IMG/VR virus record: IMGVR_UViG_3300042508_000221
Coordinates: 1-64,000 of that record
Source: a virus
Strand: one strand, 5' to 3'
DNA length: 64,000 nt
The notes under the pieces are model-generated. The model worked only from the letters and a program-made list of their open reading frames with translations. It was not told the origin of the DNA and did not search any database. Of this stretch, positions 6,952 to 51,125 are shown one piece after another. The first letter of the stretch is position 1, and each line of letters opens with the position of its first letter. A program made the translations under genes and the position numbers.

Positions 6952-7072
6952 TGCTTCACGACGGATGTCGTGAGGAGCAGTGCGAGCGTCTTGAGGATTC
7001 AAGCACGCGGCGCGCTAGCGGGATCACCCGCCGGCCGCCGCATCGTGCGTTAGGCCGGCTCAATCACAGGAG
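6952..7072 (+). promoter_or_regulatory. Structured capsid-gene leader with several GGA-loop hairpins (CsrA-type sites)
   Basis: TCACGAC-GGAT-GTCGTGA (6956-6973), CTTGA-GGAT-TCAAG (6990-7003), GCGGG-ATCA-CCCGC (7018-7031), ACAGGAG SD (7066-7072). Confidence 0.65.
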
Positions 7073-7082
7073 CAGGCCAAAC

Positions 7083-8435
7083 ATGGCATCGAATCTCAAG
7101 CGTCTTCAGGAACGTGCCGCGGCTGTCGCCGCTCGGATGACCGAACTGTCCGGTATCGAGGATCGCTCGGCCGAGCAGACCAAGGAACTCATCTCGCTCG
7201 GCACTCAGGCCGACGACCTGAAGACTTCCCTCGACTTCGAGGAGCGGATCGCCGCCAAGGAAGCCGAGCTGCGTGCGGTGGTCGAGAAGGCCGCCCCCGC
7301 CCCGGCCCCGGTTGCCGAAGTGGCCGCCAAGGCCGAGGACAAGAAGGTCGAGATTCGTTCGATCCAGCCCCACCACACCAGCCTGCGGGCGTTCAACGAC
7401 GGCCCCGAGGCCGTCGAGAGCGCGTATCGATGCGGCCGGTGGCTCCGGGCCCATATCTTCAAGAACGCCGAAGACCTTCGCTGGTGCAAGGATCACGGCG
7501 TCGAGAGCCGTGCCCTGGGCGAGAGCAGCAACTCGTCGGGTGGCGCTCTAGTGCCCGAAGAGTTTGCGGCCCGCGTGATTCGTCTCGTCGAAAACTACGG
7601 CACCTTCGCCGCGAGCAACGTCGAGAAGGTCACGATGACCCGCGACACCCTCGTGATCCCCAAGCGGGTTACGGGCACCGCAGCGTACTTCGTGGGCGAA
7701 GGGACGGCGGTAAACGAGAGCGAGCCCACTTATTCCAATGTGCAGCTTATCGCCAAAAAGCTGGCGGTTGGCACTCGGATGTCGAGCGAAATCGTAGAGG
7801 ACGCTCTGGTTTCGATTGCTGATGCTGTGGCAGTGGAGTTCAGCACCTCGCTGTCGCTCAAGCAGGATATGTGCGGTTGGTTGGGTGACGGCACCTCCAG
7901 CTTCGGCGGAATCCACGGCGTGGTGCCGAAGATCAACGACGGCACTCACACCGCTGGCGTGCTGACTGCCGGCACGGGTGCGACGGGCTTCGAGACCCTG
8001 ACCGTGACCGACTTCATCAAGCTGATCGGCCGGATGCCGCTGTACGCCCGCCAGGGTGCAGCCTTCTACATCTCGCCGGCCGGTTTCGCTGCCTCGATGG
8101 CCCGCCTCCGCTACGCGGCTGGTGGCAACACCGTCGAGCAGGTCGGTGGCGGCGTGAACGAGCAGTTCCTCGGCTACCCGGTGAACCTCGTCCACGTCAT
8201 GGACGGCACGCTCGGTGCCGACGCTGGCAAGGTGAAGGTGCTGTTCGCGAACCTCGGCCTGTCGAGCATCTACGCTCGTCGCCGTGACTTCTCGGTCAAG
8301 ATGTACGACCAAGTGTACGCCACGACCGACCAGTTGCTCCTCCAGGGAACGCTTCGCTTCGACATTAACCACCACTCGCTGGGCGACAACACGACCGCCG
8401 GCCCGGTGGTGGCCCTCAAGACCGCGGCGTCCTGA
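7083..8435 (+). CDS. Major capsid protein (HK97 fold, N-terminal coiled-coil delta domain)
   Basis: SD CAGGAG before ATG 7083; SSGGALVPEEF, YFVGEG, KKLAVGTRMSSEIVED, FLGYPV. Confidence 0.95.
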   Translation: MASNLKRLQERAAAVAARMTELSGIEDRSAEQTKELISLGTQADDLKTSLDFEERIAAKEAELRAVVEKAAPAPAPVAEVAAKAEDKKVEIRSIQPHHTSLRAFNDGPEAVESAYRCGRWLRAHIFKNAEDLRWCKDHGVESRALGESSNSSGGALVPEEFAARVIRLVENYGTFAASNVEKVTMTRDTLVIPKRVTGTAAYFVGEGTAVNESEPTYSNVQLIAKKLAVGTRMSSEIVEDALVSIADAVAVEFSTSLSLKQDMCGWLGDGTSSFGGIHGVVPKINDGTHTAGVLTAGTGATGFETLTVTDFIKLIGRMPLYARQGAAFYISPAGFAASMARLRYAAGGNTVEQVGGGVNEQFLGYPVNLVHVMDGTLGADAGKVKVLFANLGLSSIYARRRDFSVKMYDQVYATTDQLLLQGTLRFDINHHSLGDNTTAGPVVALKTAAS

Positions 8436-8475
8436 GCCTAACAACCAAAACCTCAAGGAAAGGAACCCCTAGACC

Positions 8476-8898
8476 ATGATCCACGCCCAGAATGAAAAGG
8501 TTGTGGCCTCCGTCCCGGCTTCGGTCGGCTCGAGTGCCGTGACCCTGACGATCGACACGCTCGGCTATGACCACGCGAGCGTGGCCGTGATGCGGGCCAG
8601 CAACGCCTCGACGGTTTTTGCCAGCGTCCTGAAGATCGAAGAGTCGGACGACAACTCGTCCTACTCGAACGTGACCGGCCTCGTGGGCGGCACCGACTTC
8701 ACGATCCCCGTCGTGTCCGACACGTCGGCCGTCGCGGTGGTGAAGCTGGATGTCGACACGAAGGCGAAGAAGCGTTACCTCAAGGTCACGGCGACCCCCG
8801 CGGTCAGCGTGAACACGGTGGTGACGGCTCGGCTGTCTCGTGGCGATGCCCCGACGACTGCTACTGAAGCTGGCTGCATCGGCTGGGTTAAGGGCTGA
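8476..8898 (+). CDS. Putative capsid decoration protein
   Basis: Beta-rich 140 aa directly after the capsid gene; IDTLGYD, KIEESDD, KRYLKV. Confidence 0.55.
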   Translation: MIHAQNEKVVASVPASVGSSAVTLTIDTLGYDHASVAVMRASNASTVFASVLKIEESDDNSSYSNVTGLVGGTDFTIPVVSDTSAVAVVKLDVDTKAKKRYLKVTATPAVSVNTVVTARLSRGDAPTTATEAGCIGWVKG

Positions 8899-8974
8899 TT
8901 CCCGAACTGCGGGACGGCCATGATGGCCGACAAAGGCGCATGGATGCGCGCCCGCTCCACATACGGAGCGATCC

Positions 8975-9703
8975 ATGCTGATCCGAGTCGGTAACGTCGA
9001 AGCGGAAATCAAAGTCGCGGCGGTGATGAGCACCCCGCGACTTGGATTTACCGACAATTTCTTCTGCGTCTCGTCGGCACTGGCCCCGCATGGCATCAGT
9101 CCCATCAAGGTGACGGGTGCTTTCTGGGGCCAGTGCCTTCAGCGAGCGATGGAGCAGGTCGTCGATACCCACGACGTGATCCTGACCATCGACTACGACA
9201 CAGTCTTCAATGCAAAGACTGTCGAGGCGCTGCTGGCTCTGCTTCTGCACTCTGGCTACGACGCCATCGCGCCGCTCCAGACCAAGCGGGAAGCGAATGC
9301 GGTCATGTTCGCCCTGCCGGGGAACACCCCCGACGAGAAGACGACTGTAGACGGCGACTTCTTCCAGAAGGTGGTGCAGCCGGTCGAGACGGCTCACTTC
9401 GGACTGACGTTCCTGCGGACGGCTGGCCTCAAGAAGATGAAGAAGCCCTGGTTCCTCGCCAGGGCGAATGATGATGGCGAGTGGACGGGCGGGCACACTG
9501 ACGAAGACATCGGCTTCTGGAAGGGCTGGGCCGCCTGCGGCAACAAGCTCGGGCTGGCAACGCACGTCAGCGTCGGGCACGCCGAACTGATGGTCACATG
9601 GCCCTCTCGGACGGCCGAGGGCGGCAAGGTGCAGCAGCACACGACTGAGTATTGGAACGGCGGCCAGAAGGCACCAGAGAACGCCTGGGGGCAGGTTCAT
9701 TGA
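8975..9703 (+). CDS. GT-A fold (family 2-like) glycosyltransferase in the head module
   Basis: ILTIDYD DxD motif, AHFGLTFL, KPWF, DEDIGFW, VGH. Confidence 0.7.
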   Translation: MLIRVGNVEAEIKVAAVMSTPRLGFTDNFFCVSSALAPHGISPIKVTGAFWGQCLQRAMEQVVDTHDVILTIDYDTVFNAKTVEALLALLLHSGYDAIAPLQTKREANAVMFALPGNTPDEKTTVDGDFFQKVVQPVETAHFGLTFLRTAGLKKMKKPWFLARANDDGEWTGGHTDEDIGFWKGWAACGNKLGLATHVSVGHAELMVTWPSRTAEGGKVQQHTTEYWNGGQKAPENAWGQVH

Positions 9704-9891
9704 AGATTCGCGTCCTCCAAAACTTTGACTGCTACGAAAAAGGCCAAGTCTTCGAGGACTGGGCTGGTGGGATGTGCGACATCCTCATCCGCCGTGGGCT
9801 GATCGAAGAGGTGGAGACGGCCGAGGCCGTTCCAGTGGCCGTCGAGCGAGCCGAAGTAACGACGAAGCAAGTACCAAAAAAGAGGCGATAG
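9700..9891 (+). CDS. Small head-associated hypothetical protein
   Basis: TTG start overlapping the upstream stop; LIRRGLIEEV pattern and basic tail. Confidence 0.5.
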   Translation: MKIRVLQNFDCYEKGQVFEDWAGGMCDILIRRGLIEEVETAEAVPVAVERAEVTTKQVPKKRR

Positions 9892-10530
9892 ATGGACACG
9901 ATTGTCTTCGGTACGCCGCAGAAGCCGACAGCGTCGATCACGCCGTTTCGCAGCCTAGTTCGCATCACACCGCCGGCCGTGGAGCCGGTCAGTCTGGCGT
10001 TCGCCAAGCAGCACTGCCGCGTCGATACGGATGCGGACGATCTCTACATCCAGTCGTTGATCTCGGTGGCGAGGCAGTACGTTGAGGATGTGCTGGACAT
10101 CACGATCTGCTCGACGGTCTGGGAGGTCAAGTATGACCTGTTCCCCGTCTGGGCGATCGTCCTGCCCCGCCTGCCCATGCTGGATCGTGCCGTGACGGTG
10201 ACTTACCGCAGCGGCGACGGCACCTATAGCCAGCTCTCGAGCGCCACCGACTTTCAGGTCGACGCCAGCGTGATCCCAGGCCGCATCTACCCGCAGTGGG
10301 CTCGCTCCTGGCCGGCGACCCGCGGCGACGAGAATTCGGTGACGGTGCGGTACTCGGCGGGCTACGGCGACGACGGGCAGGCAGCGCCCCCCATCGTGAA
10401 GCACCTGATTCTTCTTTTGACGGCCCATTGGTACGACACGAGACAGCCGGCCGTCGCCGGGGCTCCGCAGTCGGTGCCGCACACGTTCGACACGCTTCTG
10501 GCTGCGGCCAGCATGGGGGTCTACCGATGA
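9892..10530 (+). CDS. Head-tail connector (gp6/gp15-like)
   Basis: PAVEPVSLAFAKQHCRVD..DD.YI..LI..AR; ILLLTAHWYDTR. Confidence 0.9.
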   Translation: MDTIVFGTPQKPTASITPFRSLVRITPPAVEPVSLAFAKQHCRVDTDADDLYIQSLISVARQYVEDVLDITICSTVWEVKYDLFPVWAIVLPRLPMLDRAVTVTYRSGDGTYSQLSSATDFQVDASVIPGRIYPQWARSWPATRGDENSVTVRYSAGYGDDGQAAPPIVKHLILLLTAHWYDTRQPAVAGAPQSVPHTFDTLLAAASMGVYR

Positions 10531-10856
10531 CTGTACGGGCCCGAATCGACGTTGACGCCGTCTACCACGACGTGAGCGACTCGTCGCTGACAATCGGCAA
10601 CTTGGCGGAGCACCTTTCGCCGGCCCTGACAACGGCCCAGACGATCAGCGGGAGCGTCGGCACGGCGGCGGTGCAGATCGTCGGTGCCACGCCCCTGTCG
10701 ACGCTGGTGGTCAAGAACACGGGCTCGAGCGCCCTGCGGCTGGCTGGCAGCATCAACGTCTCAGCGGGCCGGCTGGCCGTCCTGCCCGTGACGGCGACGA
10801 TCACGGTCTCGGCTCCCTCGGGATCAGGCACCTACACCGCACTCTGGATGGGGTGA
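10527..10856 (+). CDS. Hypothetical virion protein
   Basis: ATGA-coupled beta-rich ORF among neck genes. Confidence 0.55.
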   Translation: MTVRARIDVDAVYHDVSDSSLTIGNLAEHLSPALTTAQTISGSVGTAAVQIVGATPLSTLVVKNTGSSALRLAGSINVSAGRLAVLPVTATITVSAPSGSGTYTALWMG

Positions 10857-10859
10857 TCC

Positions 10860-11180
10860 ATGATCAACTCCGGCACCATGCGGGAGAGGGTGACGATCCA
10901 GAAGCCGGTCGAGAGCCAAAGCTCGTTCGGCGAGACGACGTTGACCTGGGAGGACGAGGCCACGGTTTACGCCAGCATCATGGGCGTCAGGGCCAGTGAC
11001 TACTTCGCTGCCCAGCAGGCAGGCGCGCTGGTCACGCATCGCATTCGCATCCGATTCTTCCCTGGCATCACGCACCAGCACCGCCTCCTCTGGCGTGGCC
11101 GCGTGATGGAGATTTCCAGCGTGCTTGAACGCGACTCCCGCTCGATCCATGAGATACTGGCGAGGGAGGAAGCGACATGA
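10860..11180 (+). CDS. Head closure protein (SPP1 gp16-like)
   Basis: G.MRERVTIQ, W....TVYASI, THRIRIRF. Confidence 0.9.
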   Translation: MINSGTMRERVTIQKPVESQSSFGETTLTWEDEATVYASIMGVRASDYFAAQQAGALVTHRIRIRFFPGITHQHRLLWRGRVMEISSVLERDSRSIHEILAREEAT

Positions 11181-11914
11181 TTACGCAAGGCCAGGGATCG
11201 CCGCGAGATTTCGGCGGCAGCACCGGCAAGTCGCTCGCCGAGGGCTTCGTCACGGTCAAAACGGCTGGCGTCCGCGAGTTGGCGGAGCAGTTGCAGGCCA
11301 TCGCCATCAAGATGGGCGAGCCGAAGGCGCTCGAGGACGCGACCAAGAAGGCCGCCGAACACATTCGGCGCGGATACCGGGCCAAAGTCGGCAACGCCAC
11401 GGGCAACCTCAAAAAGTCGGTAAGGATCAAGACGAAAACCTACGACGCAGCCGCCGTCGCGATTGTCGGCCCGTGGCAGTCAGGCACCGCCGGCAGTCGC
11501 GAGGGGGCAGAATCGGGGAATCATGCGTGGCTCGTCGAATTCGGCACCGACCGCCGCAAGCCGGGAACGAAAGGCCGTCGGACGTACCTCAACGTCCACC
11601 AGATGATCAACGGGAAGATGCGGCGTCATTCGTCGGCGAACAACCAGCAGTTTGCCAATATGTCGAAGGGCTACTACTTCCTGATGGGCAGCATCAACGA
11701 GGCCACTCGGCAGGCCGGCATGGGCAAGGGCTACCCGCACGACTTCGGCTACTCCGGCGGCAAGATGCACCCCGTCACGCTACACCCTGGCGAAGACTAT
11801 GCCCCCATGCCGGCAAAGCACGCGATGCAGCAGACCATCGACGAGCAGCAGGGGGCAGTATTCAACACGCTCAAGGCCGCCATCGAAAACACGCTGGCGA
11901 GGCTGACGCAATGA
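11177..11914 (+). CDS. HK97 gp10-like neck/tail completion protein
   Basis: TGNLKKSV, HAWLVEFGT, MPAKH.M motifs. Confidence 0.75.
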   Translation: MITQGQGSPRDFGGSTGKSLAEGFVTVKTAGVRELAEQLQAIAIKMGEPKALEDATKKAAEHIRRGYRAKVGNATGNLKKSVRIKTKTYDAAAVAIVGPWQSGTAGSREGAESGNHAWLVEFGTDRRKPGTKGRRTYLNVHQMINGKMRRHSSANNQQFANMSKGYYFLMGSINEATRQAGMGKGYPHDFGYSGGKMHPVTLHPGEDYAPMPAKHAMQQTIDEQQGAVFNTLKAAIENTLARLTQ

Positions 11915-12336
11915 TCATTTCGCCAGAAAAACACGTTTTCCAGAGGCTCGTCACCACCCCGGCGGTGGCGAGGCTGGTCGGATTTCAGGTCTACCCGATC
12001 GCGGTGCCGAAGAACGCCGTTCTGCCGTTCTGCGTCTACAAGCGGAACAACATCACCCGCGAAGCCCATCTTGCGGGGCCGATGTTCCAGCCGATTGTTC
12101 ACCTCCAGATCGCCTCCTGGGCACTCTATTACGACGCAGCCCGCGAGCTGGCCGACGAGGTACGACTTGCCTTGGATGGCCGCACCGGCACCCTCTCAGG
12201 CGTTACAATTAGTGATATACGGCTCGTGTCGGAGACGGACGACTATCTAGACCCAGCCGCCGTGGGAGCCCAGCTCCCGCCAGCCTACGAGGTTCGACAA
12301 CTATTTCAGATTCGGTGGTCGGAAGCCACTGACTAA
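11911..12336 (+). CDS. Tail terminator (DUF3168-like)
   Basis: VYP..VP....LPFCVY, QIASWA..Y..A..LA..VR.ALDG. Confidence 0.8.
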   Translation: MIISPEKHVFQRLVTTPAVARLVGFQVYPIAVPKNAVLPFCVYKRNNITREAHLAGPMFQPIVHLQIASWALYYDAARELADEVRLALDGRTGTLSGVTISDIRLVSETDDYLDPAAVGAQLPPAYEVRQLFQIRWSEATD

Positions 12337-12360
12337 GACTTTAGCGCAAGGAGGCGCACT

Positions 12361-12696
12361 ATGGCCGGTGTTGCAGCGATGGGCGTGACCATGAACTACT
12401 CTGGTCAGACCCTGACGATCACGAGCTTCAATGTCAACGACCAGATCGACAACGCCGACGGTTCGCACCTCGGCCAAGCCGTGGGCAGCCGCCGCGAGTA
12501 CGTCCCGACGTTCGTGCAGCGGGAAATCTCCTGCGACTACATCGCGTCGACCGTCATTACGGTTCAGTCGGCTGCTCTCAGCATCACCGGCCCCGGCGGT
12601 CTCAGCTTCTCCGGCAACGCCACCCTCACGGCCTCGACCGTTGGCGGCACCGTCGGCGATCTCCTCAAGGGCAATGCGACTTGGCGGGTGGCCTAA
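12361..12696 (+). CDS. Putative tail tube-like protein 1
   Basis: Position after the terminator; ID.SHLG motif, SFSG.A, C-terminal G.L.KG.ATW. Confidence 0.55.
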   Translation: MAGVAAMGVTMNYSGQTLTITSFNVNDQIDNADGSHLGQAVGSRREYVPTFVQREISCDYIASTVITVQSAALSITGPGGLSFSGNATLTASTVGGTVGDLLKGNATWRVA

Positions 12697-12716
12697 CCGC
12701 CTGGAGGTGACCCGAC

Positions 12717-13082
12717 ATGGCCGGGGCCACCGCACATGGCGCGACGTTTACCTTCCTGACGTTCGTCGGCAAGCTGACGGGCATCTCGGTGGAGATGCCT
12801 TCGGCGGAGGTCACGAACATGACCGCCGCGACGGACAGTCTTGGATACACGTTCATGGTGCCGACCGGCGAATGGGCCGGCGGCACCATAACCGTGGACT
12901 TCTTGACCACCAACGCCGACCCCCAGTTGTTCGTCAGGAAGGTCGGCGATCTCAAGTTCTCCTCGGCTGGATACACCATTATCCGCCGCGTGGTCTGCGA
13001 GTCCGCGTCAGTGAGCGCCCAGGCGGGCGAACTGGTTCGCGGGTCGTTCAAGTTTCTGATGACTGATTATCAAGGCACATAG
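12717..13082 (+). CDS. Putative tail tube-like protein 2
   Basis: Similar N-terminus (MAGATAHGATF) and C-terminal GELVRGSFKF; GGTITVDF. Confidence 0.55.
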   Translation: MAGATAHGATFTFLTFVGKLTGISVEMPSAEVTNMTAATDSLGYTFMVPTGEWAGGTITVDFLTTNADPQLFVRKVGDLKFSSAGYTIIRRVVCESASVSAQAGELVRGSFKFLMTDYQGT

Positions 13083-13126
13083 CCGGCAGGATGCCGCACA
13101 GCAAGCACTTTCTGGAGCAGATTGAT

Positions 13127-13498
13127 ATGGCACTTGATCGTAAAAGCATCCTGGCAGTCGACGACGTTCGCAAGGAGAAGTTTGCCGTTCCCGAGTGGAA
13201 GGGCGACGTGTTTCTTCGTGTCCTCACTGGCACCGACCGCGATCGTTTCGAGGAGTCCTACGCCGACCAGAAGATGAAGGCGTTCCGTATCCGCTTCCTC
13301 CTGCTTGCCTTGTGCGATGACGACGGCAAGCGGTTGTTCAGCGACGATGAGGCCGACATCCTCGGCAAGAAGTCTTCGGTGGTAATCAACCGCCTGTTCG
13401 AGGCCGGCTGGAAGCTCAACGCCTTCACGCAGGAGGCAGTGGATGACCTGGGGGAAGATTCGCCCTCCGGCCAGAAAGGCGCTTCTACTTCCGCCTAG
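13127..13498 (+). CDS. Tail assembly chaperone (gpG-like)
   Basis: VPEW.G.V..R.LTG.DRD.FE, LCDDDG.RLFS; SD GGAG upstream. Confidence 0.85.
   Translation: MALDRKSILAVDDVRKEKFAVPEWKGDVFLRVLTGTDRDRFEESYADQKMKAFRIRFLLLALCDDDGKRLFSDDEADILGKKSSVVINRLFEAGWKLNAFTQEAVDDLGEDSPSGQKGASTSA
13450..13456 (+). other. Programmed -1 frameshift slippery site GGGGGAA
   Basis: The -1 frame continues RFALRPERRFYFRLAATLGMSVKRLL into ORF 13513-13773. Confidence 0.75.
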
Positions 13499-13773
13499 CG
13501 GCAACGCTGGGCATGAGCGTGAAGCGGCTTCTGGCAGAGGTCGACAGTAAGGAGATCGCCGAGTGGTATGCGTTTGATCAGAGATGGCCGCTGCCTGACC
13601 CCTGGGGTCAGACGGCCAGACTGTGCAGGGTGATCATGGCCTCGTCGGGAAACTACAAGAAGCACGACCTCCCCGACGAGTCAGCGTTCATCCCGAGCGT
13701 GGTCAAGCCAGAGCAGTCGAAGTCGCAGATCATGTCTGAGTTGATGAAGCTGAGCACGCCAATTCAAGGATGA
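13450..13773 (+). CDS. gpT-like C-terminal part of the frameshifted tail chaperone
   Basis: RRFYFRLA..LGMSV..LL...DS.EI.EW.AF, typical of gpT; directly precedes the tape measure gene. Confidence 0.75.
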   Translation, partial: GGRFALRPERRFYFRLAATLGMSVKRLLAEVDSKEIAEWYAFDQRWPLPDPWGQTARLCRVIMASSGNYKKHDLPDESAFIPSVVKPEQSKSQIMSELMKLSTPIQG

Positions 13774-13777
13774 ATCG

Positions 13778-16700
13778 ATGGCAAACGGCTACCTCGGCAA
13801 AATCAGTGCAGTTGTTTCGGCGAATACGGCCGACTTCTCGAGCAAGCTCAATGCTGCCGCGAAGGACGTTCAGAAGTTCGCCAGCAGCATGCAGGGATCG
13901 CTGACGAGCGCCCAGTCAAGCTCATCTTCTGCGCTTCGGGGGATATACACCGATGCGCAGAAGCTCGAGCGGGCTCTGACGGCGATCTCGACGAGGAAGT
14001 TGTCGTTTCGAGGCTTTGCCGACAAGGACATCGACACCGCCGTAGGGCGGATGCAGGCTCTGTACTCTGCGACGGAGCAGATAAACAAGCCGCTCGCGTC
14101 TGCCGCGAAAGCCTTCAGCAAACTCCCGGCGGAGATTCAGGGGGCTTTCCTGCCGGCGTTGATTTCGTCGCAGAAGGCCGCTGAGTCGCTTGCCGATGAG
14201 ATTAATCGAACCGGAAAAGTCAGCGAGCAGCGATTTGACGCCGTTGCCGCGAAGATCGAACGAACGACTGCGGCAATGTCCAGGCTCAAAGAGGCGTCAT
14301 CGCTCGTTTCTGGGCTGGCGACCGGCAGAGAATTGGCATTCCAGCGACCCGAAATGGTCGCTGAGACGCGGCGGTCAGCATCGCTTCAATCGGACATAGG
14401 CAGACTGCCGGCGGCAGACATCGGCGGATACGCCGACCTTGTCACGCAGCAGCGGGCCGCAGCAGTTGAGACCGAGCGGCTCGCCGCCGCCCTCGAGAAG
14501 GCGAAGCTTTCCCGAAACGCCGACGTAGCCGCCGCGACTGCCGCCTATCAGTCGCAGCTCGCTGCGCAGAGGCAGTTGAACGACGAGATAGAACGTCGCG
14601 TCGGGGCGCAGGAAGCTGCGAGCAAGAGGGCGGCAGCAGCGGCAGGTGCGGAGATCGCCGTCCTCCAGAGGCGTGCGCAAGCAGAGAAGACAGCAGAGCT
14701 AGAGCGACAGGCTCAGGCTCAGAGGACGGCCGACGCAGAGATCGCTCTTCTCCAGCGTCGAGCACAGTCGCAAAAAGATGCCGAACTTGAGCGACAGGCT
14801 CAGGCTCAGAGGACGGCCGACGCAGAGATCGCCGTCCTTCAGAGGGTTCAGCAGGCCGCCAAGGCCGCGGAGCTTGAGAGACAGGCCCAGGCCCAGAAGA
14901 TTGCCGACAGCGAGATCGCGAACCTCCAGAGGGTTCAGCAAGCCGCCAAGGCCGCCGAGATTGAGCGACAGGCTCAGGCTCAGAGGACTGTCGATGCAGA
15001 ACTCGCCGTCCTCCAGAGGCGTGCGCAAGCAGAGAAGACAGCAGAGCTAGAGCGACAGGCTCAGGCTCAGAGGACGGCCGACGCAGAGATCGCTCTTCTC
15101 CAAAGGGTTCAGCAGGCCGCCAAGGCCGCCGAGATCGAACGGCAGGCGCAGTCGCAGAAGACGGCAGACGATGAGATCGCATCGCTTATACGAAGAGAGC
15201 AGGCCGCGAGGGCGGGAGCCACGGGCGGCGAAGGCAGCCTCGGACTCGGCCTAGACATCGAAGCCCCCGCCCGACAGCTTGGTGTGCTCCAGGGGAGCAT
15301 CTCCTCGCTGAAGAGCGTGATCGACACACTGCCAGAGCCGATGCGGGCGAGGTTCGTCCCCGCGATCCGCGAGGCAGAGGCCGAGTTCATTCGACTGAGT
15401 ACGGCGGCGGTGCCGATTGCTGCCGACATTGAGGCCGCTCGGCAGCGACTCATTCATCTGACTCAGGATGCCACCCGAGCCACGCAGGCGATGAACTTCT
15501 CGCAGTCGTTCGGTGGCGCTGGCGCAACTGGCGTAAACCTCGGCCTGGATCAGCGCGCCCTTCAGGGCTACAACGCGCAGTTGCAGATTCTGCAAGGTGC
15601 GATCTCGCGGGGCAGTGCCGAGGCCAGAGGGCCAGCCGTCGCGGCGTTTGAGCGGTTTCGTGCCGCTGTCTCAACCGCCTTCGACGAGGGCACCATCGAC
15701 TCTCGCGCGATGCGAGCGCAACTCGCAGCGCTTCGCACTGAAGCCATCGCCGCAGCCGCCGCAGCGGGCGGGGTGCGCGTCGGCACGTTAACTCGCGAGG
15801 TTTCAAGGGCCGGTGACGTTGGCAGGGCTGGGTTTGACAGATTCGGTCTTGCCCTCAATCAGGCAGGCTACGCCATCGACGACTTCATGTCTTCGACGGG
15901 CGGCCTTGAGTTCAAGCTTCGCGCCGTCAGCAACAACATCACGCAGATGGCGTTCATCCTTGGCGGCACGACCGGCCTGTTCGTCGGGCTCGGTGCGGTC
16001 ATCGCAGGGCAGGCCGCCGTTGCCATCATAAAGTTTATGAACAGCGGTCGATCCGCAGAGGATCAGACAAAGGCACTCAACGACGCCCTTGCAAAACAGA
16101 AGAGCCTTGTCGACGGTTTGGCGGAGTCCCACAAAGCGCTCGCTGACGCGATTCTGCGAGGTACAACGTCAAGCTCGTCGGAGTCCGAAAGGAAGATCGT
16201 AGCTGGACAAGCCGACTTGCGGCGACAGTCCGCAGAACTGTCGGCCGAACGCAAGGCGACGGCGGACACGGCTCCTCTTGCTCCGCAGTCGATCTCGCGG
16301 ATGATCGGTGAGTTCCTCGAGACCCGCCAGAGACGCAACGAGTTTCAGGGGGTCGCCGAGCTTCGTGCCGAACTCAACAAGCTTGAGAAACAGCTCAAGG
16401 CAGCCACGACCGTCGGCGAGCGGGCGACGATTCAGGGTCGCATTCGCGACACGGGGCGAGCGGAACTGGCGACCAGGGGTCGTCTGGCGGCAGGGCAGAC
16501 ACCAGACCAGACCGTCGTTCAGTCGGCGATCAGGGGGTCGGCTGACTCGTCGGAAAATGCGTACAACGGCACATTCCTTGGGTTCAACACGGAGCAGATG
16601 TTTGCCAACGCAACTACGCTGGGTGGGTCGTACTTTTCGGGCGTCAATAATGCGAGATATGACCAGCAGATCGCAGCAAACGAAGGTCTCCGCGGCCTTG

Positions 16701-21340: not shown

Positions 21341-21349
21341 GTAACTTCT

Positions 21350-21580
21350 ATGCCGTGCTATAGCGCCGCAAACGTCACTCTCTGGCTGGGCTACAAGAGG
21401 CTCGGCAAGGCATACGCCACGCAGCAGGAGTGCGAGCAGGAGTGTTCGCAGCCTTCGGGGGCGTGCTGTAACGCAGGAGTGTGCCGAACCGCAACGCCCT
21501 GCCAGTGCGCCGGACAGGGCGACTCTTTTCTGGGGATAGGAACACAATGCTCGCCAAACCCATGCAACCCACTTCCATGA
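21350..21580 (+). CDS. Small Cys-rich protein (GACC-type repeat)
   Basis: GACC...C....PCQC...G..F.G.GT.CSPNPC. Confidence 0.6.
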   Translation: MPCYSAANVTLWLGYKRLGKAYATQQECEQECSQPSGACCNAGVCRTATPCQCAGQGDSFLGIGTQCSPNPCNPLP

Positions 21581-35236: not shown

Positions 35237-35257
35237 CGCACAACTAGGAGGTGCAAC

Positions 35258-38557: not shown

Positions 38558-38796
38558 GGCGGGAGCATCTATCCAGGGAGCCGGCCTGCATCGCGTGCGG
38601 GCGCGACGATGAGCTGGAGGTGCATCACATCCAGCCGTACCACGCAGACCCGGCGCTCGAGCTTGATCCCGGCAACCTCGCGACCATGTGCCGAGACTGC
38701 CACTACTCCGTCGCGCACGCCTACGACTGGAGGTCGTGGAGGCCCGACGTGCGGAGGATTGCCGAGGCTATCAAGACCGCTGAAGTGAAACGCTAG
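38491..38796 (+). CDS. HNH endonuclease (packaging-associated type)
   Basis: W..VR..HL..EP.C..CG, VHHI.P, NL..MCRDCH. Confidence 0.85.
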   Translation: MLNWLRRQTDDLFGRSGAWARVRREHLSREPACIACGRDDELEVHHIQPYHADPALELDPGNLATMCRDCHYSVAHAYDWRSWRPDVRRIAEAIKTAEVKR

Positions 38797-39683
38797 ACCA
38801 CCTTCGGCAGCACGCTCGGGGCGGGCACGCCTGGGCTGACGATGCGAGGGTCGAGGTACTTCTTCGTCACCGCTGGGCTGGAGTGATCAAGAAGTCGCTG
38901 GGCCGACCCGCCGGCAGCCTCGTAGTAGCTCGCCGTCGTCTTGCGGATGCGGTGAAACTTGCACCGGCGGTCGCTGGGCAGGCCCGCCCGCTGGAGGATG
39001 ATCTTCAGTATCCGCCAGAGACAGGTGTGGTGCCGATCCCACGGGATCGCGGTGTCGTCGGGGCCGCGGCGAATCGCCAGGAGGGCGTCGGCGCACTCGA
39101 CGCTGATCTCGCGGAGGATGTCCCGCCGCCTGCCCTTCCGCTCCTCGGCCCTGAAGATGACGTTGCACCCGCGCACGTCGGAGGCCCGCACCTCGACGAC
39201 CGAGGCGATGCGCTCCCCCGTGTCGTAGCACAGCAAGAGAATGGCCTTCCACACCGAGGCGGCCTGAAAGCCACCGATGCGGCCTTGCTCCTGGGCGGCA
39301 GACGCCAGGATCGCCTTCATCTCGTCAGTCAGCCACGCCTCTGGGATTCGCTCGGGCACGATGATCCTGGGCACCTGCGGCCAAGTGTCACAGAGCTTCC
39401 GGCGGGCGCAGAACTCCCAGAGGGCGCGAAGCTGGGCCCGGTCTTTCGCCGCCGTGGCCGCCGACATCTCGCGGACGCGGTGGGCCAGAAAACGGGCAAC
39501 CGCGAGTTCTTCGAGGTCGCTTGTCTCTGGCGGTCGCCCGAGCACCGCCCCCCAGGAGCGGAGGGTGTAGCCATAGAGGGTGATGGTGCGGTCGCTGACT
39601 CCGGTCAGCGGAGCGTAAAGATCGACGAGAACGCGATGCAATGTCACGGTGTGATTCTCCCTCTTGAGAAGTACCACCTCCAT
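38793..39683 (-). CDS. int: Tyrosine integrase (start codon uncertain)
   Basis: Catalytic residues present: TGER, FHRIRK, LLDHS, TKKY. Confidence 0.9.
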   Translation of the reverse strand: MEVVLLKRENHTVTLHRVLVDLYAPLTGVSDRTITLYGYTLRSWGAVLGRPPETSDLEELAVARFLAHRVREMSAATAAKDRAQLRALWEFCARRKLCDTWPQVPRIIVPERIPEAWLTDEMKAILASAAQEQGRIGGFQAASVWKAILLLCYDTGERIASVVEVRASDVRGCNVIFRAEERKGRRRDILREISVECADALLAIRRGPDDTAIPWDRHHTCLWRILKIILQRAGLPSDRRCKFHRIRKTTASYYEAAGGSAQRLLDHSSPAVTKKYLDPRIVSPGVPAPSVLPKVV

Positions 39684-39725: not shown

Positions 39726-39744
39726 AATGGTCGGTTTTTGCGGC

Positions 39745-39954
39745 CTATAGCAGCTTGGCTAACTTTTCCGGCGTCAGGACAAATGCGTTCGTGAGCCGGC
39801 AGGTCGGCCACTCGGCCCCAATGGTCAGCCGCCATTTTTTTCTCGCCTTCTCCACGGCCAGAGCCGGGGTGTCAGTCACAACCACGATCTCGTCGGCGTC
39901 CTCGACGGCGTTCCCAGAGTCCGACCACTCGCAAATCACGGTGTAGCGGGGCAT
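39745..39954 (-). CDS. Small hypothetical protein (69 aa)
   Basis: GGAGG SD 6 nt before ATG on the minus strand. Confidence 0.6.
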   Translation of the reverse strand: MPRYTVICEWSDSGNAVEDADEIVVVTDTPALAVEKARKKWRLTIGAEWPTCRLTNAFVLTPEKLAKLL

Positions 39955-40723: not shown

Positions 40724-40750
40724 CCTGCCCACGCAAAGGAGTGCAGCAGG

Positions 40751-42829: not shown

Positions 42830-42901
42830 CAAGCGTTGCCGTCTCGGCGTGTTGCCGGGGCGGTGTGTTGATGGATCGATGACAAGCTCTAGGAGAAAAC
42901 C

Positions 42902-46540: not shown

Positions 46541-46618
46541 CGTAAGTGGCTACTGACTAACACTTTAGGGTGGACCGAAAACCCGCCCACAAAACCCCAA
46601 GGAAGGAAAAGCGGTCCA

Positions 46619-48262: not shown

Positions 48263-48738
48263 TGGACACGCTTTTCGATGTATCTCCCGACGAACCTGTT
48301 CGGTCTAAAGGGAAACGCCTTACTCGCGCGCAGCCTGTTGCTCCCTTACAAGAACCAGAAAAGCCGGTTCTTTTTAGGGCATTCCAGCAGGACAGAGCGA
48401 TCCTGCCCATCGGCATGATCGATCACACCTACGACTGCGCCGACGCCGCCTGCGGCACGCAGCTCCACGACATCCTCCACGAGGATGGCGGCGAGTGGTA
48501 TCTGTCGTGCGTGTTCTGCCATACCGGCCAGTGGGTAAAGGCGATCAAGGGTCACCTGAAGCCAAAGGAACGTGAGTTCGTGCTGCGAGACGGCCGCTTC
48601 GCCGGCCTCACGCTGCCCGAGGTGGAGAAGCAGCCGCGTGGCCTTGACTACCTGAAGTGGGCGGCCGAGAGCCATCCGCGACCGACTGTCAGGGCCGAGT
48701 GCCAAAGACATCTAGACAAGACATCTGGTGTTCGTTAG
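48262..48738 (+). CDS. Hypothetical protein with Zn-ribbon-like Cys pairs
   Basis: C...CG, CVFC; GRFAG.TL.EV...YLKW. Confidence 0.6.
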   Translation: MDTLFDVSPDEPVRSKGKRLTRAQPVAPLQEPEKPVLFRAFQQDRAILPIGMIDHTYDCADAACGTQLHDILHEDGGEWYLSCVFCHTGQWVKAIKGHLKPKEREFVLRDGRFAGLTLPEVEKQPRGLDYLKWAAESHPRPTVRAECQRHLDKTSGVR

Positions 48739-48759
48739 GCTACTGACACCCACATCGGA

Positions 48760-49125
48760 ATGGAGTCCGCGGTTATGTATGGCGCATCTACACGCTTCCG
48801 AAAGCACTCTGCCTCGTGCGACACGGTGGAGGTGTCGCTATACATGGCCGGCGACATCGAGCACGCAAAACAAGTCATCAGGTTGTATTGCAAGAACAAC
48901 CCGACGTGCGTGACCGTGACGCCGACGACGTTCATCTACCGCGGCGGCGAAGAGGCCGGTTTTGTTGTGGGGTTCCGCAACTATCCGAGGTTTCCGACCG
49001 ACTTGGCCGCGCTTGAGGCTCACGCCGCGCCTCTTGCAGACGAGCTGCGAGAACAGCTTGGGCAGGACTCGCACATGATCGTAACGGCCACAAGTACGAC
49101 GTGGAGCACCAACCGCGATGCCTGA
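48760..49125 (+). CDS. Hypothetical protein
   Basis: CVTVTPT.FIY.GGEE.G...G..NYPRFP. Confidence 0.65.
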   Translation: MESAVMYGASTRFRKHSASCDTVEVSLYMAGDIEHAKQVIRLYCKNNPTCVTVTPTTFIYRGGEEAGFVVGFRNYPRFPTDLAALEAHAAPLADELREQLGQDSHMIVTATSTTWSTNRDA

Positions 49126-49966
49126 GTATCATTTTCTCAACCTGGGTGCGGGCGTTCAATCAACTGCTCTGTACCTCATGAGCATCGACGGTAGTGAGCC
49201 AGAAGTGCCGAAGTTTGATGCCGCGATCTTTGCCGATGTGCAGGAGGAGCCAGATGAGGTCTACACACACCTCGAGCACCTCAAGACGCTCGGAGGCCCG
49301 CCGATCATCGTGACCACTGCGGGCAAGCTTGGTGACGCACTGGATCACAAAGGAAGCGGAAAAACAGGGCACTACACAGCAATCCCGTCTTACACGCTCA
49401 ACCCGACAACTGGCAGCAGGGGGATCATCCAGCGTCAATGCACCGCCGACTTCAAGGTGAAGCCGATTGAACGCACCATTCGCGAGGAATGCGGAGGTCA
49501 GTTTGGTAAGCCCCTGCCGAAAGGCGTCGTTGTTCACCAGTACATGGGCCTATCTTTTGACGAGCCGAAGCGAGTGATCCGAGTTAAGCAGCGGTTCCTC
49601 GCCAAGCCAGCAAGCTGGCAAGTTCATTTCCCTCTTTGGGAAATGCAGATGACGCGATCCGACTGCGTGGCGTACCTAAATTCAAGGATAACCTATGAGG
49701 TGCCACGATCTGCTTGCGTGTTTTGCCCTTTCAAGGCGGACTCGGAGTGGCGCAGGCTCAAGGAAGAAGACCCGAAGGGCTGGGAGCGGGCGGTGCATAT
49801 CGACAAGGTGTGCCGCACTGGGAATGGTCTAGATTCCCATCGGTATCTGCACAAGGCGTGCGTGCCGCTTGATCAAGTTGACCTGCGGCCTGCCGACGAG
49901 AAGAGCGGCCAGAAGCACCTGTTCAGCGGGTTTCAAGACGAGTGCGAAGGCTACTGTGGCAATTAG
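49118..49966 (+). CDS. PP-loop (PAPS-reductase/QueC-like) protein 1
   Basis: LNLGAGVQS, IFADV.EEP, RQCT..FK, SACVFCPF, ECEGYCG. Confidence 0.75.
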   Translation: MPEYHFLNLGAGVQSTALYLMSIDGSEPEVPKFDAAIFADVQEEPDEVYTHLEHLKTLGGPPIIVTTAGKLGDALDHKGSGKTGHYTAIPSYTLNPTTGSRGIIQRQCTADFKVKPIERTIREECGGQFGKPLPKGVVVHQYMGLSFDEPKRVIRVKQRFLAKPASWQVHFPLWEMQMTRSDCVAYLNSRITYEVPRSACVFCPFKADSEWRRLKEEDPKGWERAVHIDKVCRTGNGLDSHRYLHKACVPLDQVDLRPADEKSGQKHLFSGFQDECEGYCGN

Positions 49967-50020
49967 GCTACTGGCCGACACTCACAAAGGATCGCCGCCG
50001 AAGAAGCCAAGCGAAAACCT

Positions 50021-50872
50021 ATGAAAAAGCGAATCCTAAACCTCGGAGCTGGCGTCCAGTCGACGGCTCTGTACCTGATGGCGATGGACGGCGAGATCGA
50101 GCCGTTTGACGTGGCGATATTCGCCGACACCCAGGAGGAGCCGGCTGATGTTTATCAGCACTTGGCTTGGATGGAATCACTGGGCGGCCCCACGATTTTG
50201 AAAGCGTCGGCTGGAAGCCTTGGTGACTGCCTGCTTGCCGGCAGCGATGCCCGCGGCAATATGAGGCGAGACGGTTCGCACTTCTCTTCAATTCCCGCCT
50301 ACGTCATGGACGGAGACAAGAAAAAAGGCATCGGCCAGCGGCAATGCACGAAGGAGTTTAAGGTCGATGTCGTCGAGAGGGTTATCCGCCGTCAGATATT
50401 CGGCGTAGAGCCGGGGCGACCGCTGCCGAAAGACTCCGTCTGCGTTCAGCTAATGGGGCTGTCTTTCGACGAGCCGAAAAGAGTAATCCGCGTCAAGCAG
50501 CGGTACTCTGCGAGGCCGAAGCAGTGGCTGGTTGAGTTCCCGCTATTTGACCTTGAGATGTCGCGAGGCGACTGCGTGTCTTACCTGAAGGACAGGGTTC
50601 CGCACAAAGTGCCACGGTCGGCGTGCGTCTTCTGCCCGTACAAGACCAACAAGGAATGGCTTGAACTAAAAGAGACAGACCCAGTCTCGTGGGCCAGGGC
50701 CGTGCAGATCGACGAGGGCGTCCGCGGCGACGGGTCTCGCGGCCTGAACTTCCTTCACCGCTCGTACCAGCCCCTGGCTGTTGTCGACCTGCGATCCGAG
50801 GAAGAAAAGTCTGGTCAGAGGTCTTTGTTCTCGAATTTCAACGACGAGTGCGAAGGCATGTGCGGCGTATAG
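50021..50872 (+). CDS. PP-loop (PAPS-reductase/QueC-like) protein 2
   Basis: Tandem paralog with the same motifs. Confidence 0.75.
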   Translation: MKKRILNLGAGVQSTALYLMAMDGEIEPFDVAIFADTQEEPADVYQHLAWMESLGGPTILKASAGSLGDCLLAGSDARGNMRRDGSHFSSIPAYVMDGDKKKGIGQRQCTKEFKVDVVERVIRRQIFGVEPGRPLPKDSVCVQLMGLSFDEPKRVIRVKQRYSARPKQWLVEFPLFDLEMSRGDCVSYLKDRVPHKVPRSACVFCPYKTNKEWLELKETDPVSWARAVQIDEGVRGDGSRGLNFLHRSYQPLAVVDLRSEEEKSGQRSLFSNFNDECEGMCGV

Positions 50873-50877
50873 GCTAC

Positions 50878-50906
50878 TGGACGATACTCCCGGCGTAGTT
50901 TAGATT
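50878..50906 (+). promoter_or_regulatory. Candidate sigma70 promoter for csrA-queD-queE
   Basis: TGGACG, 17 nt spacer, TAGATT. Confidence 0.4.
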
Positions 50907-50936
50907 CTCCCCGCACACAACGGAAAGGATTCCCGT

Positions 50937-51125
50937 ATGGCACTCTGCTTAACACGTCGCCCCGGTCAGAAGCTGATTCTGGATCGACCGCATATCGAGA
51001 TCACGGTGGAATCCGTGGTCGGCAAGACGGTGCGTCTGGTCATCGACGCCCCCAGGCACGTCAAGATCGTGCGTGAGGAGCTGATCTATCGGGCTCCGCC
51101 GAAGACCGAGGAGGCCGCGTCGTGA
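50937..51125 (+). CDS. csrA: Carbon storage regulator CsrA/RsmA homolog
   Basis: L.LTRR.G..L.....IEITV..V.G..VRL.IDAP..V.I.REEL. Confidence 0.9.
   Translation: MALCLTRRPGQKLILDRPHIEITVESVVGKTVRLVIDAPRHVKIVREELIYRAPPKTEEAAS

What the first reader, a model, noticed from the sequence alone, without database searches (positions are those of the whole stretch)
6952..51125. Candidate phage CsrA regulon: phage csrA plus GGA-loop hairpins in structural-gene leaders
Seen: a csrA homolog at 50937-51125, and short hairpins displaying ANGGA(T/G) at or in the loop upstream of the major capsid gene (6956-6973, 6990-7003, 7018-7031), head glycosyltransferase (GCGCA-TGGA-TGCGC, 8936-8949), tube gene 1 (GCGC-AAGGAG-GCGC, 12344-12357), tube gene 2 (CGCC-TGGA-GGTG, 12698-12709), tail chaperone (CGGC-AGGAT-GCCG, 13084-13096), tape measure (ATTCA-AGGA-TGAAT, 13762-13775), fibre gene 35258 (35238-35254) and csrA itself (50920-50936). 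Several sit 25-120 nt upstream of the start, so SD function does not explain them. Established: CsrA/RsmA dimers bind GGA in hairpin loops and block ribosome loading. Inference: the phage uses its own or the host CsrA to time late translation or set virion protein stoichiometry. No CI-type repressor, Q antiterminator or sigma factor is recognisable in the window.
Basis: partly seen in the sequence, partly recalled or inferred. Interest (0 to 1): 0.88.

Follow-up and report, generated by a model that had tools for sequence, protein, structure and literature searches.

The report
Phage CsrA with conserved GGA-loop leaders
A 74-kb lake-water phage carries its own CsrA translation regulator, and the messages for its capsid, head glycosyltransferase, tail tube and CsrA itself begin with conserved RNA hairpins that display the CsrA recognition motif. 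The phage therefore probably controls its own virion protein synthesis after transcription, though no binding has been tested.

Summary
The ten sites are not equivalent.

Comparison with over 140 related IMG/VR contigs shows strong conservation for:
- two GGAN tetraloop hairpins in the 151-nt capsid leader, with covarying stems and GGA in 91/91 leaders;
- an A-N-GGA-N hexaloop 33 nt upstream of a GT-A-fold glycosyltransferase gene (48/48);
- an AAGGAG hexaloop over the tail-tube Shine-Dalgarno site (32/32, two compensatory changes);
- a hairpin over csrA's own Shine-Dalgarno site, in four different stem versions.

A hairpin upstream of the tail chaperone is kept only in closer relatives. The third capsid hairpin is conserved but does not display GGA. 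The tube-2, tape-measure and fibre sites are not conserved and look like chance stems on Shine-Dalgarno sites. Within the genome, enrichment is modest (6 ANGGAN hexaloop hairpins against 1.6 expected).

csrA is present in all 7 near-complete relatives. A sister clade without csrA (0/5 complete genomes) has a different capsid leader with no GGA loops (1/51 against 85/91).

The capsid leader is a new structured RNA with no Rfam match and an alternative helix that buries its ribosome site. CsrA binding is plausible (about 0.5) but untested. The scan has noted the same theme in other phage genomes.

The parts
50937..51125 (+). csrA, 62 aa. Its stop overlaps the GTG start of queD (GTGA), so it is the first gene of a coupled csrA-queD-queE-NDT run.
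   Evidence: Pfam PF02599 E 2.6e-15. Alignment to E. coli CsrA 1Y00 keeps LTRR, G-x-x-VR, AP and REE. Present in 7/7 near-complete relatives.
50922..50933 (+). csrA Shine-Dalgarno hairpin GGAA-AGGA-UUCC, ending 3 nt before the ATG. Candidate autoregulatory operator.
   Evidence: Kept in 8 close relatives. Distant relatives place the same SD GGA in a loop with other stems: GCUGA/UCAGC, GCAA/UUGC, GAGG/CCUC.
6932..7082 (+). 151-nt major-capsid leader, a conserved structured RNA with no Rfam family.
   Evidence: Alignment A1 (52 sequences): 99% of cells paired, 16 pairs with compensatory changes against 7.0 +/- 1.5 in shuffles and 3-6 in slid controls. 40 further leaders. No Rfam match. Non-coding.
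6954..6975 (+). P1: 9-bp stem with a GGAU tetraloop, GGA 120 nt upstream of the ATG.
   Evidence: 7 of 9 pairs show compensatory changes. The loop is GGAU 61, GGAA 16, GGAC 12, GGAG 2, so GGA is present in 91/91.
6990..7003 (+). P2: 5-bp stem with a GGAU tetraloop, nested inside a long-range helix (6979-6988 with 7006-7016).
   Evidence: The three outer pairs covary (UA/GC/CG/AU). GGA(U/C) is kept wherever P2 exists. P2 is deleted in about 8 relatives.
7018..7031 (+). P3: GCGGG/CCCGC hairpin. Structural only, it does not display GGA.
   Evidence: The stem covaries (GC to AU). The loop varies in length and sequence. The GGGA is lost in the variants whose stem has changed (GCGAG/CUCGC).
7032..7078 (+). 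P4 (7032-7037 with 7052-7057) and the competing helix GGCCGGCUC/GAGC-GGCC (7053-7061 with 7070-7078), which buries the SD AGGAG at 7068-7072. A candidate two-state switch.
   Evidence: P4 GC to AU compensation in 6 sequences. Three-way covariation: all 11 CCAGCC/GGCUGG leaders have AGCC after the SD, and the one CCGGUC/GACCGG leader has GGUC.
8899..8974 (+). 76-nt leader of the GT-A glycosyltransferase gene (8975-9703). Contains hairpins at 8900-8914 and 8915-8929, the operator-like hairpin 8936-8949, and an SD-sequestering hairpin CGCUCC/GGAGCG at 8953-8970.
   Evidence: Alignment A3 (48 sequences): stems invariant, loops variable. GT-A fold, best match STIV A197 at E 8.6e-10.
8936..8949 (+). 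GCGC-A[U/A/G]GGA[U/G/C/A]-GCGC hexaloop hairpin, GGA 33 nt before the start and about 22 nt before the SD GGA.
   Evidence: A, G, G and A invariant in 48/48 while both N positions vary. Same position in 6/6 whole genomes.
12344..12357 (+). GCGC-AAGGAG-GCGC hairpin presenting the SD of the tail-tube gene (12361-12696).
   Evidence: Loop invariant in 32/32 distinct relatives down to 40% protein identity while the flanks diverge. Two independent compensatory changes: GCGU/ACGC and ACGC/GCGU. Tube fold.
13084..13096 (+). CGGC-AGGAU-GCCG hairpin, GGA 38 nt upstream of the tail-assembly-chaperone start (13127).
   Evidence: Kept as A(N)GGA(N) loops, with one compensatory outer pair, in relatives of at least about 81% identity plus L072. 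Absent in distant genomes G001-G003.
12698..12709 (+). Tube-2 'hairpin'. Not a conserved feature.
   Evidence: Only the SD GGAGGUGA is conserved; the 5' arm varies freely.
13762..13775 (+). Tape-measure 'hairpin'. Not a conserved feature.
   Evidence: Lies in the coding end of the upstream ORF. GGA is replaced by GGG in many relatives.
35238..35254 (+). Fibre-gene 'hairpin'. Not a conserved feature.
   Evidence: Both available orthologues (G007, G008) keep only an SD.

Best explanation
The phage makes its own CsrA from a middle-region operon. The CsrA dimer binds conserved hairpins that display A(N)GGA or GGA in the leaders of a small set of phage messages: major capsid, head-module GT-A glycosyltransferase, tail tube, in part the tail chaperone, and csrA itself. 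Binding tunes translation initiation.

Shown:
- The gene, its conservation, and the motifs it shares with E. coli CsrA.
- The RNA structures, their covariation, and the invariance of GGA in the loops.
- Their absence from a csrA-less sister clade.

Inferred:
- At the tube gene and at csrA, the site is the Shine-Dalgarno sequence itself, so binding would block the ribosome. For csrA this would be autoregulation, as I recall for E. coli csrA.
- In the glycosyltransferase leader, an upstream hexaloop and the Shine-Dalgarno GGA about 22 nt away could be bridged by one dimer.
- In the capsid leader, the two tetraloops 32 nt apart sit upstream of a two-state element: P4 against a helix that buries the Shine-Dalgarno site. 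Binding could bias that switch in either direction.

The sign of regulation, and whether abundant late transcripts titrate CsrA, are open.
For: - csrA is real and its aligned motifs are conserved.
- csrA is a core gene: 7/7 relatives at least 90% complete, plus fragments.
- Capsid leader: 99% of cells paired, 16 compensatory pairs against 7 in shuffles, GGA in the P1 loop in 91/91.
- Glycosyltransferase leader: A-N-GGA-N hexaloop, with A and GGA invariant in 48/48 while the N positions vary.
- Tube: AAGGAG hexaloop in 32/32 with two compensatory events.
- csrA: the Shine-Dalgarno site sits in a loop in four different stem versions.
- ANGGAN hexaloop hairpins: 6 against 1.58 expected, 1 on the opposite strand.
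- The hexaloop-on-GC-stem shape is that of RsmZ stem-loop 2, used as the RsmA-binding positive control in PMC4066749.
- Sister clade: csrA in 0/5 complete genomes, and GGA-loop hairpins in 1/51 capsid leaders against 85/91 here.
- The hairpins are not intrinsic terminators, and no sigma-70-type promoter is found in the region.
Against: - No binding or expression data exist. The one metatranscriptome run held only two 151-nt contigs, both inside the capsid gene.
- GGA is also the core of the Shine-Dalgarno sequence, so loops over ribosome sites (tube, csrA) could simply present that site.
- P1 and P2 are 4-nt loops, shorter than the 5-6-nt loops I recall from solved Csr/Rsm complexes.
- Stems in the glycosyltransferase leader are invariant, so they give no covariation evidence.
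- The contrast between csrA presence and absence rests on a single evolutionary split.
- Motif counting shows no regulon-wide signal.
- The host is unknown, so a host CsrA could be the binder.
Confidence: 0.5

Rival explanations
1. The conserved hairpins are cis-acting elements that need no CsrA. They present or sequester the Shine-Dalgarno site to set translation rates of abundant virion proteins, protect 5' ends, or mark RNase processing sites. The two-state capsid leader would fold kinetically or respond to ribosome traffic. On this view the phage CsrA has other, host, targets.
For: - The tube and csrA sites coincide with Shine-Dalgarno sites.
- Both the capsid and the glycosyltransferase leaders hide their Shine-Dalgarno site in a stem.
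- The leaders follow a recurrent box right after stop codons that could be a promoter or a processing site.
- The published view is that phage CsrA manipulates the host (PMC8450108).
Against: - It does not explain why A and GGA are invariant in apical loops 33-120 nt upstream while neighbouring loop positions and other loops (P3, P4, hairpin B) vary freely.
- It does not explain why the csrA-less sister clade has a capsid leader without GGA loops.
Confidence: 0.22
2. The GGA loops do bind CsrA-family protein, but the purpose is directed at the host. Either the host's CsrA regulates phage late genes, or the abundant capsid leader acts as a small CsrB/RsmZ-like decoy that titrates CsrA, while phage CsrA reprogrammes host messages such as defence or metabolism genes.
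For: - Campa et al. report many phage RsmA/CsrA homologues, correlated with hosts that have their own CsrA, and propose host manipulation.
- A note on this same genome (e1-6075277) proposed the decoy reading.
Against: - Only two conserved GGA loops plus the Shine-Dalgarno site are present, far fewer than the many GGA repeats I recall in CsrB or RsmZ.
- There is no terminator, and the leader runs directly into the capsid ORF.
- P2 is dispensable in about 8 relatives.
- The only host clue is a sphingomonad MAG. Its sole CsrA gene lies on the contig that also carries the phage capsid gene, and 60 other genomes of that family showed no CsrA. This host assignment is weak.
Confidence: 0.13
3. The loops are recognised by another factor: a different phage RNA-binding protein (for instance capsid or scaffold autoregulation, or a RegA/RegB-like protein), or a small-molecule ligand sensed by the capsid leader as a riboswitch.
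For: - The capsid leader has a multi-helix architecture and mutually exclusive helices, like riboswitch expression platforms.
- Many phage genes remain unannotated.
Against: - The same GGA-in-loop signature recurs in four unrelated leaders, including csrA's own. That fits one trans-acting GGA reader encoded by the phage.
- The loops are mostly GGAU, GGAA or GGAC rather than GGAG, which as I recall is the RegB cleavage motif.
- No Rfam riboswitch match.
Confidence: 0.1

Closest known systems
Bacterial CsrA/RsmA/RsmE with GGA-hairpin operators on mRNA leaders (E. coli glgC and csrA leaders; P. fluorescens RsmE-hcnA, PDB 2jpp)
   Same: - A small CsrA-family protein with conserved LTRR, VR, AP and REE motifs.
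- Target-like sites with A(N)GGA in hairpin loops, one overlapping the Shine-Dalgarno site.
- Pairs of sites 22-32 nt apart.
- A site on csrA's own ribosome-binding site.
   Different: - Regulator and candidate targets are both encoded by a virus, and the targets are virion genes.
- Two sites are 4-nt GGAN tetraloops.
- The capsid leader adds a multi-helix domain with a competing Shine-Dalgarno-burying helix.
- No sponge RNA, FliW or CsrD partner was found (FliW search negative).
Phage- and MGE-encoded RsmA/CsrA homologues (Campa et al. 2021, PMC8450108; Burkholderia phage CSP3/DC1, PMC10269572)
   Same: A csrA homologue carried by a tailed phage. In the CSP3 record the CsrA-like gene sits next to the capsid gene.
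   Different: - Those papers propose action on host genes such as CRISPR-Cas, and report a correlation with hosts that have CsrA.
- Here the evidence points to conserved sites on the phage's own late leaders.
- The CSP3 protein as read lacks the LTRR and REE motifs, and its capsid 'leader' appears by eye to hold a reverse-strand ORF, so it is not a clean parallel.
CsrB/RsmZ-type sponge RNAs
   Same: GGA motifs displayed in hairpin loops. The hexaloop-on-GC-stem shape equals RsmZ stem-loop 2.
   Different: Only 2-3 sites, no terminator, not a separate transcript, and followed directly by the capsid ORF.
B. subtilis / Campylobacter CsrA-FliW-flagellin checkpoint (PMC4894983, title and abstract only)
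   Same: CsrA controlling translation of the major subunit of a self-assembling structure.
   Different: No FliW-like gene in the phage, and no evidence of coupling to assembly.

Membership tests
CsrA/RsmA protein family (Pfam PF02599) | Profile match above the curated threshold over the whole domain | tested here: met
   E 2.6e-15, 56.6 bits against a cut-off of 27, profile positions 2-48 of 53. Eight PDB CsrA/RsmE chains matched.
CsrA/RsmA protein family (Pfam PF02599) | Conserved RNA-contact residues in strands beta1 and beta5 (E. coli L4, R6, R7, V40, V42, R44, I47; the residue list is from memory of Mercante et al. 2006) | tested here: met
   The alignment to 1Y00 shows LTRR, VR, AP and V-x-[VI]-x-REE-[IL] kept. 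Also kept in 11 phage relatives.
CsrA/RsmA protein family (Pfam PF02599) | Interdigitated homodimer that binds GGA RNA | not tested
RNA binding cannot be tested with these tools.
CsrA-regulated mRNA leader (operator sites) | GGA, ideally A(N)GGA, exposed in the loop of a short hairpin | tested here: met
   P1, P2, 8936, 12344, 13084 and 50922. Loops conserved across 32-91 relatives.
CsrA-regulated mRNA leader (operator sites) | One site overlapping the Shine-Dalgarno sequence or start codon | tested here: met
   The tube and csrA hairpins are the Shine-Dalgarno sites. The capsid and glycosyltransferase leaders have an A(N)GGAG Shine-Dalgarno site.
CsrA-regulated mRNA leader (operator sites) | Two or more sites within bridging distance of one dimer (under 60 nt in PMC4066749) | tested here: met
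   P1-P2 32 nt; 8936 loop to the Shine-Dalgarno site about 22 nt. The tube leader has a single conserved site.
CsrA-regulated mRNA leader (operator sites) | Regulon-level excess of leaders meeting the CSRA_TARGET sequence rules | tested here: not met
   9 genes pass against 8.2 expected. The signal lies in structure and conservation, not in motif counts.
CsrA-regulated mRNA leader (operator sites) | Direct binding and CsrA-dependent change in translation | not testable with these tools
   Needs EMSA, ITC, toeprinting or reporters.
CsrB/RsmZ sponge RNA | Many GGA loops on a separate, terminated small RNA | tested here: not met
   Two conserved GGA loops, no terminator, continuous with the capsid ORF.
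Any Rfam family | Covariance-model match | tested here: not met
   No match at gathering score in the 64 kb. In the capsid leader the only match was a chance-level symR hit, E 1.1.

The most novel reading that the evidence does not exclude
A large group of lake-water phages runs a self-contained CsrA circuit. The virus supplies both the regulator and a set of private operators on its capsid, glycosyltransferase, tail-tube and csrA messages. The capsid leader would be a protein-responsive two-state RNA switch that sets the timing or stoichiometry of virion proteins, possibly in a host lineage with no Csr system of its own.
Probability: 0.3. Interest if true: 0.8.

Novelty: new variant of a known kind. 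Interest (0 to 1): 0.66.

Why it matters
Phage-borne csrA genes are known, but the papers read here treat them as tools for manipulating the host. Conserved CsrA-type operators on the phage's own virion messages would give these genes a different job: post-transcriptional control of particle production. They would also provide a compact, portable regulator-operator set.

The capsid leader is a well-supported new structured RNA. It is found in at least 140 related contigs (over 570 capsid relatives in IMG/VR), has covariation in five helices, and has a competing helix over the ribosome site. That makes the hypothesis directly testable with purified protein and short RNAs, even though the host is uncultured.

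Other notes of this scan report the same theme in unrelated phages. If those hold, the phenomenon is general.

Tried and rejected
- Megablast of 20 kb against GenBank phages found nothing. tblastn with the capsid protein found only distant hits of 30% identity or less, and csrA gave one weak hit.
- Rfam gave no family.
- A genome-wide count of loosely defined GGA 'loops' is uninformative, since 27% of all GGAs qualify.
- Motif counting by CSRA_TARGET-like rules shows no excess.
- A FliW search in the phage was negative.
- The Burkholderia phage CSP3 csrA-capsid junction was examined as an independent lineage. Its protein lacks the LTRR and REE motifs, and the spacer appears by eye to hold a reverse ORF, so it is not informative.
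- Host inference: the only cellular hits are two MAG contigs. No capsid relative was found in 400 other genomes of the sphingomonad family, so the host stays unknown.
- Metatranscriptome run X20 held only two 151-nt contigs inside the capsid gene, which says nothing about the 5' end or the leader.
- The hairpin at 59937 looked like a sixth site. It lies inside the coding sequence (the true start is probably ATG 59925) and is not kept in distant relatives.
- No sigma-70-type promoter and no + strand terminator were found in 6500-13900.

Full report
**What the DNA is.** The window is the first 64 kb of a 74,090-bp single-contig virus record with 62% G+C. It is held almost entirely by lake-water metagenomes. 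It has no close relative in GenBank phages but hundreds in IMG/VR: 208, then 572, capsid relatives.

Gene order, by my own codon-bias gene call and family searches:
- large terminase, portal, prohead protease;
- major capsid protein (Pfam Phage_capsid);
- a 140-aa protein, then a 242-aa protein with a GT-A glycosyltransferase fold (best PDB match STIV A197, E 8.6e-10);
- head-tail adaptor and tail completion protein;
- a 111-aa protein with a tail-tube fold (siphophage R4C, GTA and lambda gpV tubes);
- a chaperone-like gene (weak Pfam Phage_TAC_1 match below the cut-off), a 1717-aa ORF in the tape-measure position that I did not search, and tail and fibre genes;
- a tyrosine integrase on the minus strand;
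- helicases, a primase-polymerase, two unassigned 280-aa genes, then csrA-queD-queE-NDT.

The csrA ORF (50937-51125) matches Pfam CsrA at E 2.6e-15. It aligns to E. coli CsrA (1Y00) with the LTRR, VR, AP and REE motifs intact. One correction matters: the capsid gene starts at ATG 7083, not at the upstream TTG. Eighty relatives align from residue 1, and 60 of 91 leaders carry in-frame stops upstream. So 6932-7082 is a 151-nt untranslated leader.

**Is it more than chance within this genome?** Only modestly.
- With loose rules (4-bp stem, loop of 4-9 nt), 27% of all GGA triplets sit in a 'loop'.
- For GGAs in the Shine-Dalgarno zone I swapped 5' and 3' flanks among leaders. This keeps leader composition but breaks complementarity. 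The result is 25 hairpins seen against 18.2 +/- 3.6 expected, and 13 against 7.3 for loops of 6 nt or less (P 0.024). Stems of 5 bp or more show no excess.
- ANGGAN hexaloops closed by four Watson-Crick pairs occur 6 times on the coding strand, against 1.58 +/- 1.28 in dinucleotide shuffles (P 0.005) and once on the other strand. Six control hexaloops are not enriched.
- Counting A(N)GGA motifs by rules modelled on the published CSRA_TARGET criteria gives no signal: 9 genes against 8.2 expected.

A handful of real sites on a background of chance stems is what these numbers suggest.

**Conservation sorts the sites.**

*Capsid leader.* I aligned 52 and then 40 further distinct capsid leaders, at capsid identity 64-97%. 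The leader is a conserved multi-helix RNA. On alignment A1, 99% of cells pair, and 16 of 40 pairs show compensatory changes, against 7.0 +/- 1.5 in shuffles and 3-6 when partners are slid.
- P1 (6954-6975) is a 9-bp stem in which 7 pairs covary. Its tetraloop is GGAU, GGAA, GGAC or GGAG, so GGA is present in 91 of 91.
- P2 (6990-7003) has a covarying stem and a GGAU loop, nested in a long-range helix. It is deleted in about eight relatives.
- The loops of P3 and P4 vary freely, which makes the invariance of GGA in P1 and P2 stand out.
- The 3' arm of P4 can instead pair with the four bases just after the Shine-Dalgarno sequence, forming a longer hairpin that buries AGGAG (7068-7072). All 11 leaders in which P4 changed to CCAGCC/GGCUGG carry AGCC after the Shine-Dalgarno site. 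The one leader with CCGGUC/GACCGG carries GGUC. That three-way covariation supports two mutually exclusive states.
- Rfam has no family for this RNA. It is not a terminator.

*Glycosyltransferase leader (8899-8974).* This leader is almost invariant in 48 distinct relatives. In its third hairpin the loop reads A-N-GGA-N: A, G, G and A are fixed in 48 of 48, while both N positions take three or four different bases. The Shine-Dalgarno site is sequestered in a 6-bp stem downstream.

*Tube gene.* The Shine-Dalgarno site sits in GCGC-AAGGAG-GCGC in 32 of 32 relatives, down to 40% protein identity, while the flanks diverge. There are two independent compensatory changes.

*csrA.* Its Shine-Dalgarno site sits in a loop in close relatives (GGAA/UUCC). 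In three distant genomes the stems are entirely different: GCUGA/UCAGC, GCAA/UUGC and GAGG/CCUC.

*Chaperone.* The hairpin upstream of the chaperone gene is kept, with A(N)GGA(N) loops and one compensatory pair, only in the closer part of the clade.

*Not conserved.* The tube-2, tape-measure and fibre sites: the arms vary, or GGA becomes GGG.

**Link to csrA.** csrA is present in all seven relatives that CheckV rates at least 90% complete, spanning 71-95% capsid identity, and in several fragments. A sister clade whose capsid protein is about 41-42% identical (326 contigs) has no csrA in five of five complete genomes. Its capsid leader is a different conserved structure without GGA loops: 1 of 51 leaders has a GGA-loop hairpin upstream of the Shine-Dalgarno zone, against 85 of 91 here. 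This is one evolutionary contrast, not a statistic, but it goes the way the hypothesis predicts.

**Mechanism.** I think the most likely reading (about 0.5) is that the phage CsrA dimer binds these loops.
- At the tube gene and at csrA, the site is the ribosome-binding site, so binding should repress. For csrA that gives autoregulation.
- In the glycosyltransferase leader, the hexaloop and the Shine-Dalgarno GGA are about 22 nt apart. In the capsid leader, the two loops are 32 nt apart. Both distances are within the under-60-nt spacing used for dual-site binding.
- The hexaloop-on-GC-stem shape is that of RsmZ stem-loop 2, the positive control for RsmA binding in PMC4066749.
- Whether binding locks the capsid leader off or holds P4 and turns it on cannot be told from sequence.
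- csrA lies in the replication and DNA-modification region and is translationally coupled to queD. It is therefore probably made before the late genes. This is inference.

Rivals are:
- CsrA-independent presentation or sequestration of the Shine-Dalgarno site, or mRNA stabilisation;
- a host-directed CsrA, with the leaders as decoys or as host-CsrA targets;
- another trans factor or a ligand.

**Host.** The only cellular hits are MAG contigs. One is binned as Chakrabartia (Sphingomonadaceae). That MAG's only CsrA gene lies on the contig that also carries the phage capsid gene, and 60 other genomes of the family showed none. But 400 genomes of the family hold no capsid relative either. The host is therefore unproven, and the idea of a CsrA-less host is only a lead.

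**Literature.** Phage csrA homologues are documented and are interpreted as host manipulators (PMC8450108; PMC10269572). Two full-text searches found no paper on a phage CsrA acting on the phage's own virion leaders.

**Earlier notes of this scan.** The scan's own notes report the same pattern in many other phage genomes. These are unchecked AI notes and I did not use them as evidence, but the scan has seen this before on other DNA.

**Verdict.** It is a new variant of a known regulatory kind, carrying a well-supported new leader RNA.

Noticed in passing
window 6932, 22012, 25246, 46547, 48736, 49964, 50870, 12325; genome 67588(-), 67566(-): A recurrent box, TAGGCTAC(T/C)G followed by an A/C-rich stretch, lies directly after stop codons and often includes the TAG. 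Matches number 13 against 5.7 expected at 2 mismatches or fewer. It precedes the capsid leader and csrA in relatives too. It may be a phage-specific promoter or an RNA processing site. No sigma-70-type promoter is found nearby.
   Followed up: partly
window 7032-7078: The capsid leader has two mutually exclusive helices with three-way covariation, so it behaves like an expression platform. What flips it is unknown.
   Followed up: partly
window 8975-9703: A 242-aa head-module protein with no Pfam or PHROG match has a GT-A glycosyltransferase fold (pLDDT 80; STIV A197, collagen galactosyltransferases) and an invariant DYD motif. It may glycosylate the capsid.
   Followed up: partly
window 38793-39647 (-) and 39745-39954 (-): A tyrosine integrase (Pfam Phage_integrase plus the SAM-like N domain) and a small adjacent gene lie on the minus strand. 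The phage is probably temperate. The attachment site was not sought.
   Followed up: no
window 21341-21546: A 206-nt stretch without a called gene holds three GCAGGAGUG repeats in predicted hairpins. It shares the 9-mer AGTGCGAGC with the capsid leader. It may be a small gene or another RNA element.
   Followed up: no
window 50937-53185: The csrA stop overlaps the queD start (GTGA). Next come a radical-SAM (QueE-like) gene, a nucleoside deoxyribosyltransferase-like gene and a 225-aa gene with no Pfam match. This is a 7-deazaguanine-type DNA-modification run headed by csrA.
   Followed up: partly
L200-L279 (sister clade), about 60 nt upstream of the capsid start: The csrA-less sister clade has its own conserved capsid-leader hairpin (GGCGAUGCG-UCC-GCGUCGCC type) before the Shine-Dalgarno site. 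This looks like another undescribed leader motif.
   Followed up: no
window 13513-13773: An 86-aa ORF with no Shine-Dalgarno site lies between the chaperone gene and the 1717-aa ORF in the tape-measure position. It is probably the frameshift extension of the chaperone (G/GT type).
   Followed up: no
window 59925-60176: My gene call started this gene at TTG 59946. Conservation of the upstream codons in relatives points to ATG 59925, which puts the GGCUC-AAGGAC-GAGCC hairpin inside the coding sequence.
   Followed up: partly
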